Source of the DNA: a virus | Taxonomy: Duplodnaviria > Caudoviricetes | Strand: one strand, 5' to 3' | Length of the DNA: 62,054 nucleotides | Virus record (IMG/VR): IMGVR_UViG_3300020430_000015 | Span: 1 to 62,054 of that record | Shown: positions 6,260 to 10,758 of the stretch, piece by piece | Numbering within the stretch: the first letter of the stretch is position 1 | Layout of the letters: every line of letters begins with the position of its first letter | Translations under genes and position numbers: made by a program | The notes under the pieces: generated by a model | Told to the model about the DNA's origin: nothing | Databases searched by the model: none | Seen by the model: the letters and a program-made list of their open reading frames with translations, nothing else

Positions 6260-6365
6260 TGCAAACTAACACATAATATAAAGTGTAAAATAATCTACCT
6301 TACAGACATCTAAAATCAAATATGCTGTTTTAATGATGAAATCACCTGTTCTAAATAATACACCT

Positions 6366-6935
6366 ATGCAAGTATACACGCAAATAACCAAACCTGCGGA
6401 GTTAAACGGAGATGATGTCTGGATACCCTGTATGAAAACATATACAGTGGACCATGATCCCGCCAAGCCGCAAGGCTTAATCATCACACACATCGAATCA
6501 GTCAATCATTACAAACACAGTCTCAAAAAATTACTAGATCAAAAAATTTATGCAGTGGGTTCCAAGACCTACGATAGACTAGTGGAGATAGGATTTAACG
6601 AAAACAACATACACTGGCGACACAAGGCGGATGAACTCAAACTGATGAGTAAAGACGTAGGGCCACTCACGTGGCTCCGCGGAGACAAATACGCAAGAGA
6701 TTTTTCGAAGATGCCAAATGTGACCACCATCCAGACCTACGAGTCACGTCCTGACAGGGACGCCGTTAAAAAAATTTTAAAGATGGATCCCAAAGTGATT
6801 CATGTGTACCAACAAAGTGTGTTGGAAGAATTGGAAGTTAGAGATTGGAGTCACACAAAACTCCGCTATGTTCAGAGTGCAGACCCTGATAAGAGTTTGT
6901 GGTTGGACTGTGAACAGTTTGATCCTAATGTGTAA
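6366..6935 (+). CDS. hemD: Uroporphyrinogen-III synthase (HemD)-like protein
   Basis: IITHIESV, IYAVGSKTYDRL, LTWLRGD and IQTYES align with HemD motifs (FTSxNAV, aVGxxTa, lrG, vYet). Start moved to ATG 6366, just after TAAATA at 6352-6357. Confidence 0.55.
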   Translation: MQVYTQITKPAELNGDDVWIPCMKTYTVDHDPAKPQGLIITHIESVNHYKHSLKKLLDQKIYAVGSKTYDRLVEIGFNENNIHWRHKADELKLMSKDVGPLTWLRGDKYARDFSKMPNVTTIQTYESRPDRDAVKKILKMDPKVIHVYQQSVLEELEVRDWSHTKLRYVQSADPDKSLWLDCEQFDPNV

Positions 6936-7002
6936 GAACGACTGCGTCGTTCTGCTTCGCTAAACGCTCAGCAATTAAGCAATCAACATAACGAAGTTAT
7001 GT
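6935..7002. repeat. Cluster of three short perfect inverted repeats with GNA triloops
   Basis: AGAACGAC-TGC-GTCGTTCT at 6935-6953, GCTTCGC (GCGAAGC on minus) at 6954-6960, ACATAAC-GAA-GTTATGT at 6986-7002. Confidence 0.7.
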
Positions 7003-7321
7003 GTCGCATCATGCAGATAGTTGATCCATACTTCACCCGTTTGGGCAAAGTAGGAGCCATCATGCGAGATTAGCCTGCCATTGTGTGAGAGGAAATTTCT
7101 TTCGATCGGAAGCGGTGACCCGCCAACTCCCTATTCCAGACTTCATAGTCACGGGCAACTGACCCACCCTTCACAAACAAAGTGAGTAGTTGTGATGTTG
7201 TATCTTTTTCACAGAGCATCTTCTTTTGTGCCTCAAGTAAGCACTTGCCTTGCAACTCAGGATTCACCTAACGTTTTATCAACTGCATTTCCTGGATATC
7301 GCTATCAACTGTGTTGCTATG
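7003..7321 (-). ncRNA. Candidate large structured ncRNA of unknown family
   Basis: GC-richer gap with no credible ORF. Multiple nested helices, several needing G-U pairs on the minus strand, plus 5'/3' long-range complementarity. Confidence 0.55.
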
Positions 7322-7750
7322 TTAAGCCTTGTGAGATTTTAATTCTTCTTTTAGGACTTTGGATCCGCCTACGCGAACATTAATAATTCCATTGTAGTAG
7401 TCGTCTGTTTCGAGCACTCTTCTGTCAAACTGTTCCTTGGCTTCCAAATAACTCATTGTGCCTCTGTTTGAGCAAATGTATAATATTTCCCTAGTAAATT
7501 TGTCTTCCCCTTGTGCCTTGACGTCAGCAACCAAATGATCATTGGAACCCCAATAGTCTCTCCAGTCACTTTCGACTTTGCTTCTACGTTTGTTTATTCT
7601 TCCCTTGAGTGGCGGACGTGTCTTCTTGAATTTTGCCAGTTTTTTGCCCACATATTTTTTACCGTTGGTTGTATTGGTAATGAGATACACAAAGCCTTCA
7701 CAGTCTTCTGGCAGTGTGTCTATGGGTTTTCCTTGATATGTCCATGCCAT
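7322..7750 (-). CDS. GIY-YIG family endonuclease-like protein
   Basis: GFVYLITN...KKYVGKK, YWGS, FTREIL, YLEAKEQ and YYNGII motifs. TAAGTA box at 7756-7761. Confidence 0.8.
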   Translation of the reverse strand: MAWTYQGKPIDTLPEDCEGFVYLITNTTNGKKYVGKKLAKFKKTRPPLKGRINKRRSKVESDWRDYWGSNDHLVADVKAQGEDKFTREILYICSNRGTMSYLEAKEQFDRRVLETDDYYNGIINVRVGGSKVLKEELKSHKA

Positions 7751-7768
7751 ACCAATACTTACCGTGTG

Positions 7769-7984
7769 CTATTTTTGGTTGTGTGTCTTTTGATTTCTGC
7801 TGTCTTCAAACTCTGTTGTGAGTTCTTTTCTACGTGTTCGGGCCAAAATTCGAATTTCCGCGAGCGCCTTTCTGGCGGCTACTTTGGTAGCGAGGCTCCG
7901 CCTCTTCGCGAACTGCTCGTTTGCCTTGAAGTACGCCATGTATGCTTTGGTCAACTTATCATGTGTATCATCTTGTATGCTCAT
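7769..7984 (-). CDS. Small basic helical protein (Hc1/histone-like)
   Basis: GGAGA RBS before ATG 7984; KVAARKALAEIRILARTRRKEL motif. Confidence 0.5.
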   Translation of the reverse strand: MSIQDDTHDKLTKAYMAYFKANEQFAKRRSLATKVAARKALAEIRILARTRRKELTTEFEDSRNQKTHNQK

Positions 7985-9752
7985 ATGTCTCCACATCATT
8001 TGCATAAGAAGTGAATCCGTTTTCTTTTATCACTTTCAATACATTGTTTACACGCCCTACCAGTTCATCTTTGTGACTGATTAAGAATATGTTTTTGCCT
8101 CTCTCCCTACTCATCTTTTTCAATATTGCTAACGAACTTTCAACACCTGCACTGTCCATACCACTGTCTATCAATTCATCTAGGAACAACAGATTAATAT
8201 TTTGATACAAGTTTTCCCATACATCTCTGAATGCAAAACTCATACCTAGTATTAATCTGTTACGTTCACCTCTGCTCAAGTTGTCAAAATCTAAGTCTTG
8301 ACCGAGTTGAGTGATTTCCACACTCAAATCATTTTTGAATGTGACCAAGTGTGGAAGTCCCAATTGATCCAAGTAGTGTGTTAACCTGTTGTTCAAGAAG
8401 GTCAGGTTTTGATCAATTATCTTTTTCCTTATGAAGGAATCTTTGTTTGTTAACAATTTGTACAAGAATTCTTGATGTTCTTTTAGTTTTTGTAGTGTGT
8501 TTGCTTCATCCCAATTTATTTCTTGTAGTGCTTGTTTTTGTAATTCATCTATTTGATCTATGTATGGATTGGATTCTTTTTGTTTGTTTTTCAATGCTGT
8601 TTCTATGTTGCCCACGTATTGTTTGTGTTCGTATGCTTCTTTTATTGTGTCATAGTATGTGTTTGGTTTTTCTGTGAGATCGCCTAAATCTTTAAGTTCT
8701 TTTTCTGTTTCATCTAATTGTTCCTGCAAATCCATCACATAACTGTTTGCTTCTCCATATTCTTCTTCTAGTTTTCTCTGCATTTCTTCAATTTTTTCAT
8801 TTGGCAAATCCTGACCACAAGCATAACAAGTGGCTTTTTCATTTAATTTGTTCAAATCTTTGTCTAGTTTTTTAGCAGTTTTATCTGCTTGTTCTATTGT
8901 GGCTTCCAAATTACTTTTATCTTTTAGTAATTGTCTTTGCTCTTTGTCCAGTTTATGCCAATCTTCTAATGTCTTGTGTGCATCAAGTTCTTTTTCAACA
9001 TCAAAATTTTCTAATTCTTGCAAATTCTTTTGCAATTTTTCAATATCATCTTTGTTTTGTGTTTCCCAAGCACTGCTTTTATGATGTAAACTTTGAATTG
9101 TTTCTTCAACTTTCTGATTGCTTATTTTAAGACCTTCTAATCTTGCTGTTTCCATAGCAATATCTTCTTTAGTCCTTTTAATTTTTGTTTTCAGTATTTC
9201 TGCTTTTTCAGACAACAACTGTATACCTAGTAATTGTTCTATAATATCTTGTTGTTCAGAATGATGTAAAGCCAAAAACGGTTGAGTGTATGTGTTAAGT
9301 GCGACAAGATGTTTAAACATACGTGGAGTCATACCAATCATTTTGTTCAGGTCTTCTTGTGTTTTACGTGAGTCACCTTGACTGACGTCTGATAATTCTT
9401 GTTCTGTATCATCAATAAAGTATTTCATAACGTTTGGTTTTCTACCACGTTCTACTCTATATTTTTTGCCTTCCTTTTCAAATGTAATTGTGACCAACAT
9501 ACCTTTTCCGTTGGTTTTGTTTACAAGATTATCTCTACGTATTTTTGTAAGTGCTTCACCATATAGTGCATAGGACAGTGCATTTACAATAGTTGTCTTA
9601 CCTGTACCATTACGCGATCCTGCATCATCACCACCCATGTCTAAGTTTTCACCTAGTACAAGTGTTAATAGTTTTTGTTGGAAGTCTATGGCCTGGGTTT
9701 GATTACCCACACTCATAAAATTTTTAACTGTAAGAGTCTTAATTAGTATCAT
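7968..9752 (-). CDS. gp46: Recombination endonuclease ATPase subunit (gp46/SbcC/Rad50)
   Basis: Walker A NGTGKTT, zinc hook CYACG, coiled coil, signature LSRGE, Walker B LLFLDE, ISH motif. Confidence 0.95.
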   Translation of the reverse strand: MILIKTLTVKNFMSVGNQTQAIDFQQKLLTLVLGENLDMGGDDAGSRNGTGKTTIVNALSYALYGEALTKIRRDNLVNKTNGKGMLVTITFEKEGKKYRVERGRKPNVMKYFIDDTEQELSDVSQGDSRKTQEDLNKMIGMTPRMFKHLVALNTYTQPFLALHHSEQQDIIEQLLGIQLLSEKAEILKTKIKRTKEDIAMETARLEGLKISNQKVEETIQSLHHKSSAWETQNKDDIEKLQKNLQELENFDVEKELDAHKTLEDWHKLDKEQRQLLKDKSNLEATIEQADKTAKKLDKDLNKLNEKATCYACGQDLPNEKIEEMQRKLEEEYGEANSYVMDLQEQLDETEKELKDLGDLTEKPNTYYDTIKEAYEHKQYVGNIETALKNKQKESNPYIDQIDELQKQALQEINWDEANTLQKLKEHQEFLYKLLTNKDSFIRKKIIDQNLTFLNNRLTHYLDQLGLPHLVTFKNDLSVEITQLGQDLDFDNLSRGERNRLILGMSFAFRDVWENLYQNINLLFLDELIDSGMDSAGVESSLAILKKMSRERGKNIFLISHKDELVGRVNNVLKVIKENGFTSYANDVETYEHTR

Positions 9753-10758
9753 TATTCAAATCTCTAAATATACCTAACAATACTTGTTTGTCATATGCGT
9801 CTGATTCAATTGATTCAATTTCTTTAGAAACTATCTGATCAACACTTTCAAACTTTGTGATATCTATGTCGGTATTAATTTCTTCGTCTTTTTTGTTAGG
9901 AATTAATGTAATTTCTCTACATCCATATTCTTTCATAAATGTTTCTTTTATAAAACTTGCTTCTTCAAAACTTATATCAATATCTAGTGTAACTCTCAAA
10001 TGCATTTTGCTTTTCATGATGTCTTTAGTTTTATCCAGCAGTGTGCTTAATTTAACATTTCTATATTTAGGACAGTTGCCCCAATTAAAATACACAGGCT
10101 CTTTGCCATGTTCTAGTATCATCATGCCACGTTCATCGTCATCTACATCTGCGTAATTGTGCGGAAACGGATTACCTAAATAATGAATATTATTCTTAAT
10201 TTGTCTTTTGTGGAAATGTCCAGAGAACACATATTCCTGAGCAACAAAGTCACTGCCTTTTAGTTCGCCAGTGTCTGGCATTTCTACCATTGCATTCATA
10301 AAAAAGTTCGGCAGTTCAAAATGCCCGAACATATATTTGCATTTCATCTTGCCCACCTTTTTCCATTCATTACCAACAAGCCAAGGAACCATTACCACAT
10401 CATCTATCTTTGTGATTTCGTTGATCATTGTGATACCTGGAATAAATCTTCCGAATTCAGTTGACTGTATATCTCTGCTGTCTTTGTAATATAAGTCGTG
10501 ATTGCCTGGAAAGAAATAAAATTTATCGAATGCTTTTCCTATTTTTTCTAAACTTCTAATAGAAGCATCCATAGTGGTTATGTTTACACTGTTTCTATTG
10601 TGATGCCAGTCACCACAGAACATTCCAGTTTCACAGCCATGCTGTTTCGCAAGGTCTATGTACCAGTCTATAAATTCTTCGCAATCATCGTTGTGTAACT
10701 TTGAGTTGGATTTCAAGCCAAAGTGTATGTCAGTAAAAACCGCTAATTTCTTGAACAA
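9739..10758 (-). CDS. gp47: Recombination endonuclease nuclease subunit (gp47/SbcD/Mre11)
   Basis: DIHFG, GDWHH, GNHD, GHFE and SGHFH metallophosphoesterase motifs; TTG start with AGGAGA RBS. Confidence 0.95.
   Translation of the reverse strand: MFKKLAVFTDIHFGLKSNSKLHNDDCEEFIDWYIDLAKQHGCETGMFCGDWHHNRNSVNITTMDASIRSLEKIGKAFDKFYFFPGNHDLYYKDSRDIQSTEFGRFIPGITMINEITKIDDVVMVPWLVGNEWKKVGKMKCKYMFGHFELPNFFMNAMVEMPDTGELKGSDFVAQEYVFSGHFHKRQIKNNIHYLGNPFPHNYADVDDDERGMMILEHGKEPVYFNWGNCPKYRNVKLSTLLDKTKDIMKSKMHLRVTLDIDISFEEASFIKETFMKEYGCREITLIPNKKDEEINTDIDITKFESVDQIVSKEIESIESDAYDKQVLLGIFRDLNNDTN

What the first reader, a model, noticed from the sequence alone, without database searches (positions are those of the whole stretch)
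7003..7750. Large candidate structured RNA directly downstream of a small GIY-YIG nuclease
Seen: the largest non-coding gap in the window starts right after the nuclease stop codon on the same strand. Minus-strand helices are: TCC-TACTTT-GCCC-AAAC-GGGT-GAAGTA-T-GGA (7055-7025, two G-U pairs); GCGG-GTCA-CCGC (7123-7112); nested TCAC/GTGA and AACT/AGTT stems (7195-7149); long-range TCCAGG (7296-7291) with TCTGGA (7140-7135); and AGTTGAT, present twice (7310-7304, 7284-7278), complementary to ATCAACT (7025-7019). The 142-aa nuclease looks like a bare catalytic domain with a basic KKTRPPLKGRINKRR insert and no long DNA-binding tail. Inference: a co-transcribed nuclease + RNA pair, possibly a ribonucleoprotein, RNA-guided or ribozyme-like system. 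I do not recognise the RNA family.
Basis: partly seen in the sequence, partly recalled or inferred. Interest (0 to 1): 0.8.

Follow-up and report, generated by a model that had tools for sequence, protein, structure and literature searches.

The report
Large structured RNA after phage nuclease
The gap after a small phage nuclease gene holds a real, conserved, knotted RNA of unknown function that is common in aquatic T4-like phages, but it does not appear to need the nuclease.

Summary
The 386-nt ORF-free stretch (window 7321-6936, minus strand) is a genuine structured RNA. It folds better than shuffles only on the minus strand. It is present downstream of the orthologous nuclease in 61 of 65 testable viral contigs. 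On 26 sequences, 91.8% of cells pair against 44-52% in slid controls, and 26 of 44 pairs change on both sides, including two pseudoknots.

No Rfam family matches the window. Sister variants carry Rfam Polynucleobacter-1 (RF01718) as their 5' domain. A model built from the window-type central/3' part finds those variants full length. The window RNA is therefore an undescribed variant of a larger modular family.

The nuclease is a conserved stand-alone SegE-type GIY-YIG domain. The pairing looks like lineage synteny (gp46-orf78-nuclease-RNA). The nuclease occurs without the RNA in Melnitz phages, a cyanophage and phiM12. The RNA occurs without the nuclease in Polynucleobacter chromosomes, beside DUF6641 and a short integrase.

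An RNA-guided nuclease is unlikely. The function is unknown; my best guess is an autonomous RNA that binds a protein.

The parts
7322..7750 (-). 142-aa stand-alone GIY-YIG nuclease (SegE-type domain, phrog_447)
   Evidence: Pfam PF19835, E 2.9e-35, residues 3-123 on profile 1-123/123. PHROG phrog_447. AF2 model pLDDT 81; best PDB fold match is the I-TevI catalytic domain 1LN0 (prob 0.96, E 0.19). 591 relatives in viral contigs.
6936..7321 (-). Whole structured RNA (type A of a modular family)
   Evidence: No ORF. Minus-strand fold z -2.43. 12 loci are 85-95% identical over all 386 nt and 14 more match in part. Covariation. G-T wobble pairs dominate several paired columns, which fits RNA on this strand only.
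7252..7317 (-). 5' domain: closing helix P1 (7317-7313 with 7256-7252) around two small hairpins
   Evidence: Read from the sequences: the two P1 strands change together between types (GCAAC/GTTGC, GGAC/GTCC, ACTGTA/TACAGT). No statistics were run.
7228..7244 (-). Hairpin H2
   Evidence: In the MFE fold. The stem sequence differs but stays complementary in other subgroups (read).
7194..7220 (-). Hairpin H3 with the conserved purine-rich loop CTCTGTGAAAAAGATACAA
   Evidence: Stem variants GATG/CATC, GTGG/CCAC, GTATG/CATAC, GCTGG/CCAGC, GTGGG/CCCAC read. The loop is nearly invariant. A similar CTGNGNAAAAG motif recurs in type B' 5' domains.
7156..7192 (-). Hairpin H4; its loop carries the 5' strand of pseudoknot PK1 (7175-7171)
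   Evidence: helix 1: 9 pairs, 7 with changes on both sides, 80.1% paired. The outer part is covered helix 2.
7084..7088 (-). 3' strand of PK1 (pairs with 7175-7171)
   Evidence: helix 2: 5 of 5 pairs change on both sides, 93.8% paired.
7147..7152 (-). 5' strand of pseudoknot PK2 (pairs with 7120-7115, the loop of hairpin P_d)
   Evidence: helix 3: 6 pairs, 4 with changes on both sides, 96.8% paired.
7091..7137 (-). Helix P_f (7137-7134 with 7094-7091) enclosing hairpin P_d (7131-7127 with 7112-7108; inner pairs 7122-7121 with 7114-7113)
   Evidence: helix 4 (4 of 4 pairs change on both sides, 94.1% paired), helix 5 (97.7%) and helix 6 (92.3%).
7058..7069 (-). Repeat r1 (TCTCGCATGATG), end of repeated unit 1
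7030..7051 (-). Hairpin H7 between the two repeated units
   Evidence: helix 8: 9 pairs, 93.4% paired, 2 with changes on both sides.
7007..7018 (-). Repeat r2 (ATCTGCATGATG), end of repeated unit 2
   Evidence: In 68 of 78 distinct RNAs both copies carry the same core octamer variant, of about 11 variants, 48-70 nt apart.
6985..7003 (-). Hairpin with a TTCG-type loop
   Evidence: MFE fold. The equivalent hairpin has a C(TTCG)G loop in most relatives (read).
6953..6973 (-). Hairpin with tandem G-A/A-G pairs and a small loop (GA hairpin)
   Evidence: Read. The motif TGAGCG..AGCGAAAA retrieved further family members. It is deleted in L001-L004 and in 3 metatranscriptome contigs (12 bases left out at 6959).
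6936..6952 (-). Terminal G+C hairpin at the junction with the convergent gene 6333-6935 (likely the 3' end of both transcripts)
   Evidence: RNA-library contigs stop or start at 6937-6946 (a weak hint only). There is no T-run, and the terminator scan did not call it.

Best explanation
The gap is the gene for a roughly 385-nt, compactly folded non-coding RNA on the minus strand.

Structure shown by comparison: hairpins H3, H4, P_d and H7; helix P_f; and two pseudoknots (the H4 loop with 7088-7084, and the P_d loop with 7152-7147). Read from the sequences but not statistically tested: the closing helix P1, and a 3' tail of three hairpins ending at the convergent-gene junction.

It is one variant (type A) of a modular RNA family of aquatic T4-like phages. 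The central/3' part is shared. The 5' domain is swapped between variants, and in one variant it is the Rfam motif Polynucleobacter-1.

In these phages the RNA lies last in the gp47-gp46-orf78-nuclease gene string. It is probably transcribed through from the nuclease gene (inferred). The nuclease is an ordinary conserved stand-alone GIY-YIG enzyme that neither needs the RNA nor is needed by it (inferred from distribution).

Most likely mode of action (inference, about 1 in 4): a stable RNA acting on its own as a scaffold or decoy. Its two copies of a roughly 28-nt unit, which change in parallel between lineages, would be twin docking sites for one co-evolving partner, probably a protein.
For: - Strand-specific stability.
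- Raised G+C of 45-48% against 35-39% in most flanking bins.
- No coding: 1-2 nt indels between relatives and within RNA-library contigs.
- RNA present in 61 of 65 orthologous loci with at least 600 nt downstream. A strict motif script found 41. Another 20 were classed from alignments and sequences, and 4 lack it.
- Covariation: 91.8% of 1088 cells paired against 44-52.5% slid. 26 of 44 pairs change on both sides against 8-16 slid. Score 0.399 against 0.10-0.135. 0 of 500 shuffles reach the observed value on four of five measures.
- Family link: RF01718 at 62-118 bits starts 13-35 nt after the nuclease stop in 9 loci. Model R1, built from type A only, hits those same RNAs full length further downstream: L222 53.6, L223 53.0, L099 49.4, L211 48.3, L094 43.9 bits.
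- Independence: the nuclease lacks the RNA in the Melnitz phages, S-MbCM100, phiM12, and loci L040/L044/L075/L079. RF01718 RNAs occur in 10 of 101 Polynucleobacter-genus genomes. The seven copies whose sequence was read carry the r1/r2 units, GA hairpin and end hairpin. There is no nuclease within 1.5 kb in 10 of 12 such loci, nor within 10 kb in 3 chromosomes. There the upstream gene is divergent, so the RNA needs its own promoter.
- Parallel change of r1 and r2.
- RNA-library contigs from 3 studies cover the RNA; one 766-nt contig bridges 6897-7645.
Against: - No transcript ends, strand or abundance could be measured. The runs are assembled contigs, and DNA may be present in RNA libraries.
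- No promoter was found for the RNA: 0 sigma-70-like sites in 6700-8100.
- In an unbiased motif scan the RNA always had the nuclease upstream when enough flank existed (33 loci; 6 more were too short to tell). In L058 nuclease and RNA are inverted together between their neighbours. A functional tie in phages is therefore not excluded.
- The structure was derived from the same sequences on which it was counted.
- The sequences fall into a few clades.
- The chromosomal Polynucleobacter copies and most type B RNAs were not hit by model R1 at E<=0.01. Their homology in the central part rests on my reading of shared elements.
- The proposed partner of the repeated units is unknown.
Confidence: 0.6

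Rival explanations
1. Cis-acting 3' element of the nuclease operon. The folded RNA stays attached to the mRNA and controls its 3' end, stability or translation, for example by limiting expression of a potentially harmful nuclease, or by insulating converging transcription.
For: Always last on the gp47-gp46-orf78-nuclease strand and followed by a hairpin at the convergent junction. One RNA-library contig bridges ORF and RNA. No separate promoter was seen. In L057 and L097/L134 another ORF lies between nuclease and RNA, so the RNA keeps the operon-end position rather than adjacency.
Against: About 330 nt with two pseudoknots is far more than a 3' stabiliser needs. The same RNA in Polynucleobacter chromosomes follows a divergent gene and precedes other genes. 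The nuclease gene does without it in the Melnitz phages and a cyanophage.
Confidence: 0.2
2. Ribozyme. The pseudoknotted core with invariant purine-rich joining strands catalyses a reaction such as self-cleavage, processing or ligation. r1 and r2 would be twin substrate or recognition sites.
For: Nearly invariant unpaired segments between covarying helices, and two pseudoknots. Identical repeats flanking hairpin H7 could be two cut sites releasing a roughly 58-nt piece.
Against: No match to any ribozyme family in Rfam, even at E<=10. The helix order does not fit a group I intron, and there are no exons. No joints or sharp ends appear in the contigs (tables 5 and 6), though contigs cannot show them.
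Confidence: 0.1
3. One reading: the RNA is a cofactor or guide of the GIY-YIG nuclease, forming a ribonucleoprotein.
For: Tight linkage in phages: 33 of 33 testable motif-found loci have the nuclease upstream. Joint inversion in L058. The nuclease has no DNA-binding domain. HNH nucleases with HEARO/omega RNAs set a precedent (recalled).
Against: Each occurs without the other. No variable guide-like segment appears among close relatives. The nuclease is more conserved (71-95%) than gp46 (50-89%) while RNA types are swapped. Stand-alone GIY-YIG enzymes without a binding domain are known (T4 endonuclease II; recalled).
Confidence: 0.08
4. Not an RNA: a decayed C-terminal DNA-binding domain of a Seg-type homing endonuclease, or a DNA-level site such as an origin or recombination site.
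For: T4 Seg proteins are longer and carry a C-terminal binding domain (recalled). Direct repeats r1/r2 could be protein sites on DNA.
Against: All 80 relatives kept are about 138-150 aa. All three frames of the gap are full of stops. Compensatory changes and G-T wobble pairs fit one strand only. The plus strand has no excess stability.
Confidence: 0.03

Closest known systems
Polynucleobacter-1 RNA motif (Rfam RF01718; Weinberg et al. 2010, PMC2864571, table and passages seen)
   Same: Sister variants of this RNA carry RF01718 as their first 141 nt, directly after the same nuclease gene. They share the central/3' part with the window RNA. Both are orphan RNAs of unknown function in aquatic samples.
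   Different: The window's own 5' domain does not match RF01718 even at E<=10. RF01718 covers only about a third of the RNAs that contain it. The 2010 table lists it as probably cis-regulatory, whereas in the phage loci no same-strand gene follows it. The paper's supplementary file, which may describe its gene context, could not be seen.
GOLLD and ROOL: large ornate RNAs of phages and prophages (10.1101/2024.12.08.627333; search listing and start of abstract seen)
   Same: Large, complex-folded RNAs with no known function, carried by mobile elements.
   Different: No sequence or structure match. This RNA is smaller, about 330-560 nt. Self-assembly, shown for those RNAs, is untested here.
HEARO / omega RNA with IscB nucleases (recalled)
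   Same: A large structured RNA found next to a small nuclease gene.
   Different: Here each partner occurs without the other, no guide segment is seen, and the nuclease is GIY-YIG rather than HNH/RuvC.
T4 Seg and I-TevI GIY-YIG homing endonucleases; T4 endonuclease II (the latter recalled)
   Same: The protein has the SegE-type GIY-YIG domain and an I-TevI-like catalytic fold.
   Different: It has no DNA-binding tail. It is a conserved gene at a fixed place, more conserved than its neighbour gp46, rather than sporadic like a homing gene. It has no sequence match to any solved structure.

Membership tests
Rfam RF01718 Polynucleobacter-1 | Covariance-model score at or above the gathering score (37 bits) | tested here: not met
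   0 matches in the window at gathering. Not among the 5 weak matches at E<=10 in 6700-8100.
Rfam RF01718 Polynucleobacter-1 | Belongs to the same larger RNA as RF01718-bearing molecules (shared central/3' domain) | tested here: met
   Model R1, built from 25 type A sequences, gives full-length hits downstream of the RF01718 hit in L222, L223, L211, L099, L094, L050, L064, L096, L032 and L071 (30-54 bits).
Group I intron | Match to the Rfam intron model; interruption of a gene with flanking exons | tested here: not met
   No match. The RNA lies between a stop codon and a convergent gene.
Group I intron | P3-P7 pseudoknot around a P4-P6 domain | tested here: not met
   The order of the covarying helices puts only 26 nt between the PK2 strands. 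This is my reading of the topology, not a formal test.
Guide RNA of an RNA-guided nuclease (omega/HEARO kind) | RNA and nuclease gene always occur together | tested here: not met
   Nuclease without RNA. RNA without nuclease.
Guide RNA of an RNA-guided nuclease (omega/HEARO kind) | A variable guide segment next to a constant scaffold | tested here: inconclusive
   Variable parts are hairpins and a short linker after r1. No free hypervariable stretch of 16 nt or more appears among close relatives.
Guide RNA of an RNA-guided nuclease (omega/HEARO kind) | Physical binding of RNA and protein | not testable with these tools
   No tool here folds an RNA with a protein.
GIY-YIG nuclease, SegE-type domain (PF19835) | Profile match over the curated cut-off | tested here: met
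   121.6 bits against cut-off 25, over the full profile.
GIY-YIG nuclease, SegE-type domain (PF19835) | GIY-YIG catalytic fold and conserved motif residues | tested here: met
   Best PDB fold hits are the three I-TevI catalytic-domain chains (weak, E 0.19-0.43). Y22, Y33, G35, R87, E88, E103 and N120 are invariant in 10 sequences. Which of them are catalytic is by recall.
Homing endonuclease (Seg/I-TevI kind) | Separate DNA-binding domain; sporadic, mobile distribution | tested here: not met
   142 aa with no second domain. Fixed synteny in 73 of 80 loci and higher conservation than gp46.
GOLLD / ROOL ornate RNAs | Match to their Rfam models | tested here: not met
   No match.

The most novel reading that the evidence does not exclude
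The RNA is a new class of autonomous 'ornate' mobile-element RNA with an activity of its own (catalysis or self-assembly). It would be traded between virulent T4-like phages and small integrase-bearing chromosomal islands of their hosts. The island copy could be a decoy or counter-weapon against the phage copy, or the reverse. The twin, co-varying units would be the sites of that activity.
Probability: 0.12. Interest if true: 0.85.

Novelty: new variant of a known kind. Interest (0 to 1): 0.6.

Why it matters
- These phages are abundant in seawater and lakes: 591 relatives of the nuclease in one viral collection and RNA-library contigs from three studies. Yet this roughly 385-nt RNA has no family assignment.
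- The work shows that an orphan Rfam motif from 2010 is only the first third of a much larger RNA.
- That RNA comes in several swapped-domain versions and is shared by virulent T4-like phages and integrase islands of a cultivable host genus (Polynucleobacter). This gives a tractable system in which to find its function.
- It also removes an attractive but unsupported reading, an RNA-guided GIY-YIG nuclease.
- It flags the widespread database label 'NAD synthetase' for this nuclease family as probably wrong.

Tried and rejected
- Rfam at gathering on the window and on 12 loci of types A-C: nothing.
- Rfam at E<=10 on 6700-8100: noise only.
- blastn of the gap, a type B RNA and a type D RNA against 50,697 phage records: no match. 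No cultured phage in that collection is known to carry the RNA.
- Pseudogene reading: the three frames are full of stops.
- PDB sequence search with the nuclease: 0 hits at E<=1.
- Search for targets complementary to r1/r2 in the window: 7 matches at up to 3 mismatches against 9.5 expected. The repeat itself is not enriched: 3 against 2.7 expected.
- Ideas tried on paper and dropped because variants break them: r1/r2 as box C/D, a bulge-helix-bulge, start-codon or T-box mimics, or a mini-CRISPR array.
- A small hairpin inside each unit and a 5'-to-3' closing helix (AGTTGAT/ATCAACT) remain possible but untested.
- mafft-qinsi was not usable; plain MAFFT was used instead.
- My first automatic r1/r2 extraction was noisy and was replaced.
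- The promoter scan found no sigma-70-like site, and TATAAATA is absent from the window.
- Contig depth over the RNA against its flanks cannot rank expression. Parts without cover are not evidence.
- Literature: searches for GIY-YIG with structured, guide or noncoding RNA, pelagiphage RNA and ornate RNAs found no description of this RNA. 'Polynucleobacter-1' occurs in one held paper only.

Full report
**What is there.** The window is a 62-kb fragment of a T4-like virus. On the minus strand lie gp47-like (9739-10758) and gp46-like (7968-9752) genes. They are followed by a 78-aa basic ORF (7769-8005), a 142-aa ORF (7322-7750), and then 386 bases with no ORF, down to the stop codon of a convergent gene at 6333-6935. 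Two apparently larger gaps from a crude ORF scan are covered by ORFs of 350 and 273 aa. This is therefore the largest non-coding stretch I found. Its G+C is 45-48%, against 35-39% in most flanking bins.

**The nuclease.** The ORF matches Pfam SegE_GIY-YIG over the whole profile (E 2.9e-35, residues 3-123 on positions 1-123 of 123). The basic KKTRPPLKGRINKRR segment is therefore part of that domain type and not an insert. It belongs to PHROG 447. That family, and many GenBank records, carry the label 'NAD synthetase', which does not fit a GIY-YIG domain. An AlphaFold model (pLDDT 81) has the I-TevI catalytic domain as its best solved-structure match (1LN0, probability 0.96, E 0.19). No solved structure matches by sequence. 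All 80 relatives kept are about 138-150 aa, so the short form is the normal form.

- The minus strand folds at -118.4 kcal/mol (z -2.43; 1 of 100 shuffles as good). The plus strand shows no excess (z -0.15).
- On an alignment of 26 type A/C sequences (A2) I counted a structure of 44 pairs.
  - 91.8% of 1088 cells form standard pairs, against 44.0-52.5% when partners are slid by 1-3 columns.
  - 26 pairs change on both sides, against 8-16 slid.
  - The covariation score is 0.399, against 0.097-0.135 slid.
  - 0 of 500 shuffles reach the observed value on four of five measures (34 of 500 on the fifth).
AACT/AGTT is the outer part of a real hairpin.
- In GCGG/CCGC only the two inner pairs hold. 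Its loop pairs with 7152-7147 as a pseudoknot.
- TCAC/GTGA is not supported (60.6% paired).
- TCCAGG/TCTGGA conflicts with helix 7137-7134 / 7094-7091, in which all 4 pairs change on both sides.
- AGTTGAT/ATCAACT stays open.
- Several paired columns are mostly G-T wobble (for example 24 of 26 at two pairs). This fits an RNA read from the minus strand and not a DNA structure.
- Caveats: I derived the structure from these same sequences, and they fall into a few clades.

**Conservation.**
- 591 stretches in viral contigs encode relatives of the nuclease.
- The gap itself is 85-95% identical over its full length in 12 of the 80 loci kept, and partly alignable in 14 more.
- Of 65 loci with at least 600 nt downstream, a strict motif script found the RNA in 41. 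Reading the other 24 showed 20 more with a recognisable variant and 4 without (L040, L044, L075, L079).
- Relatives differ by 1-2 nt indels, and all three frames are closed, so the region is not coding.

**A modular family, partly known.**
- The 78 distinct downstream regions fall into type A (25, including the window), type B (32) and 21 others.
- Most share a 3' module (68 of 78 have the r1/r2 pair): repeated unit 1, hairpin H7, repeated unit 2, a TTCG-loop hairpin, a hairpin with tandem G-A pairs, and a final hairpin.
- The two units end in a core octamer, GCATGATG in the window. That octamer exists in about 11 variants, and in 68 of 78 RNAs both copies carry the same variant, 48-70 nt apart. 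Two sites changing in parallel, rather than in a complementary way, suggest one common partner that co-evolves with them.
- The window has no Rfam match.
- The 'type D' variants match Rfam Polynucleobacter-1 (RF01718) at 62-118 bits, starting 13-35 nt after the nuclease stop.
- A covariance model built only from type A central/3' sequences (R1) finds these type D RNAs full length, downstream of their RF01718 hit, at 30-54 bits. It also finds five further variants at 66-85 bits.
- The window RNA and the RF01718-bearing RNAs are thus versions of one larger RNA with different 5' domains.
- RF01718 was published in 2010 as an orphan motif, marked as probably cis-regulatory (PMC2864571, table seen; supplement closed).

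**Is it tied to the nuclease?**
- Within the phages the linkage is tight. I scanned viral contigs with a 3'-hairpin motif that does not depend on the nuclease.
  - 33 of the 80 loci listed had the nuclease upstream: 31 at 325-610 nt, and 2 at 1299 nt with an extra ORF between.
  - 6 had the repeats but too little flank to tell.
  - 41 had neither and look like chance hits.
- However, the whole neighbourhood is syntenic. gp46 lies upstream in 73 of 80 loci, and the baseplate-like gene lies downstream and convergent.
- The nuclease (71-95% identical) is better conserved than gp46 (50-89%). It behaves as a core gene and not as a roaming homing gene.
- The nuclease occurs without the RNA in the four Melnitz phages (76% identical), in a cyanophage, in phiM12 and in contigs with other neighbours.
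- Conversely, RF01718 occurs in 10 of 101 genomes of the Polynucleobacter genus, some of them single-contig chromosomes.
  - The seven copies whose sequence I read are full length, with both units, the G-A hairpin and the end hairpin.
  - They have no nuclease within 1.5 kb in 10 of 12 loci, or within 10 kb in three chromosomes.
  - They sit in a small cassette: DUF6641 gene (divergent) - RNA - acidic ORF - 188-aa tyrosine recombinase.
  - With a divergent gene upstream, the RNA there must have its own promoter.
- One observation favours a unit in phages: in L058, nuclease and RNA are inverted together between their usual neighbours.

**Expression.**
- Eight runs on record as RNA hold part of the stretch.
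- Contigs from three studies cover the RNA. One of 766 nt bridges 6897-7645, and several contigs stop or start at 6937-6946, where the end hairpin lies.
- These are assembled contigs from libraries that can contain DNA. They show presence and are compatible with read-through from the nuclease gene, no more.

**How it most likely works.**
- Shown: a conserved, strand-specific, pseudoknotted RNA fold of a modular family carried by mobile elements.
- Inferred: it is made as the tail of the nuclease transcript in these phages, and from its own promoter in the chromosomal cassette. It acts independently of the nuclease.
- My best single guess (about 25%) is a stable RNA that scaffolds or titrates a protein through its twin units.
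- Rivals: a cis-acting 3' element of the operon (20%), a ribozyme (10%), a nuclease cofactor or guide (8%), and a non-RNA feature (3%). The remainder is unknown.

**Novelty.** Searches of the held literature found no description of an RNA linked to GIY-YIG genes or of this RNA in pelagiphage-like viruses. 'Polynucleobacter-1' occurs in the 2010 paper only. I rate it a new variant of a known kind: an undescribed, larger architecture around a known orphan motif.

Noticed in passing
window 7769-8005 (-): A 78-aa, very basic, probably helical ORF sits between gp46 and the nuclease. It is kept at that place in most related loci and has no Pfam or PHROG family. It could be a nucleic-acid-binding partner of the RNA or of the nuclease.
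   Followed up: partly
window 7322-7750 and public phage records: This GIY-YIG family (phrog_447) is labelled 'NAD synthetase' in PHROGs and in many GenBank phage records. The domain content gives no support for that name.
   Followed up: partly
whole window: The T4-type late-promoter octamer TATAAATA is absent on both strands (0 found; 7.9 expected, sd 2.6). This suggests avoidance, or a different late-promoter motif in this lineage.
   Followed up: no
L245-L247 (three Polynucleobacter chromosomes), RNA near the middle of each: Conserved small cassette: DUF6641 gene (divergent) - full-length RNA - acidic ORF(s) - 188-aa tyrosine recombinase, next to ordinary chromosomal genes. It looks like a small integrative element. 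One genome has two copies on one chromosome.
   Followed up: partly
L058:1923-6414: Nuclease plus RNA are inverted as a block between the baseplate-like gene and gp46, compared with the usual order.
   Followed up: no
L016, L025, L041 and other type B loci, downstream of the nuclease: In type B RNAs the central domain is replaced by a different conserved domain, while the 5' end and the 3' module are kept. A purine-rich motif CTGNGNAAAAG recurs in different places in types A and B'.
   Followed up: partly
window 6953-6973; L001-L004: The G-A hairpin is deleted in the window's closest relatives L001-L004. A 12-base deletion at 6959 is also seen in three RNA-library contigs. This hairpin is therefore dispensable in nature.
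   Followed up: no
L081:4438-4587 (Methylophilales phage Melnitz-3): After the Melnitz nuclease gene only about 150 nt remain. They begin with the same CATAGCAAC...GTTG as helix P1 of the RNA, followed by a perfect TATAAATA. This may be a remnant left after loss of the RNA.
   Followed up: no
L205-L232: Contigs carrying this phage gene order sit in genome bins labelled as very different organisms: Neomarinimicrobiota, Pacearchaeota, Bifidobacterium and Saccharibacteria. They are probably phage contigs mis-binned into those genomes.
   Followed up: no
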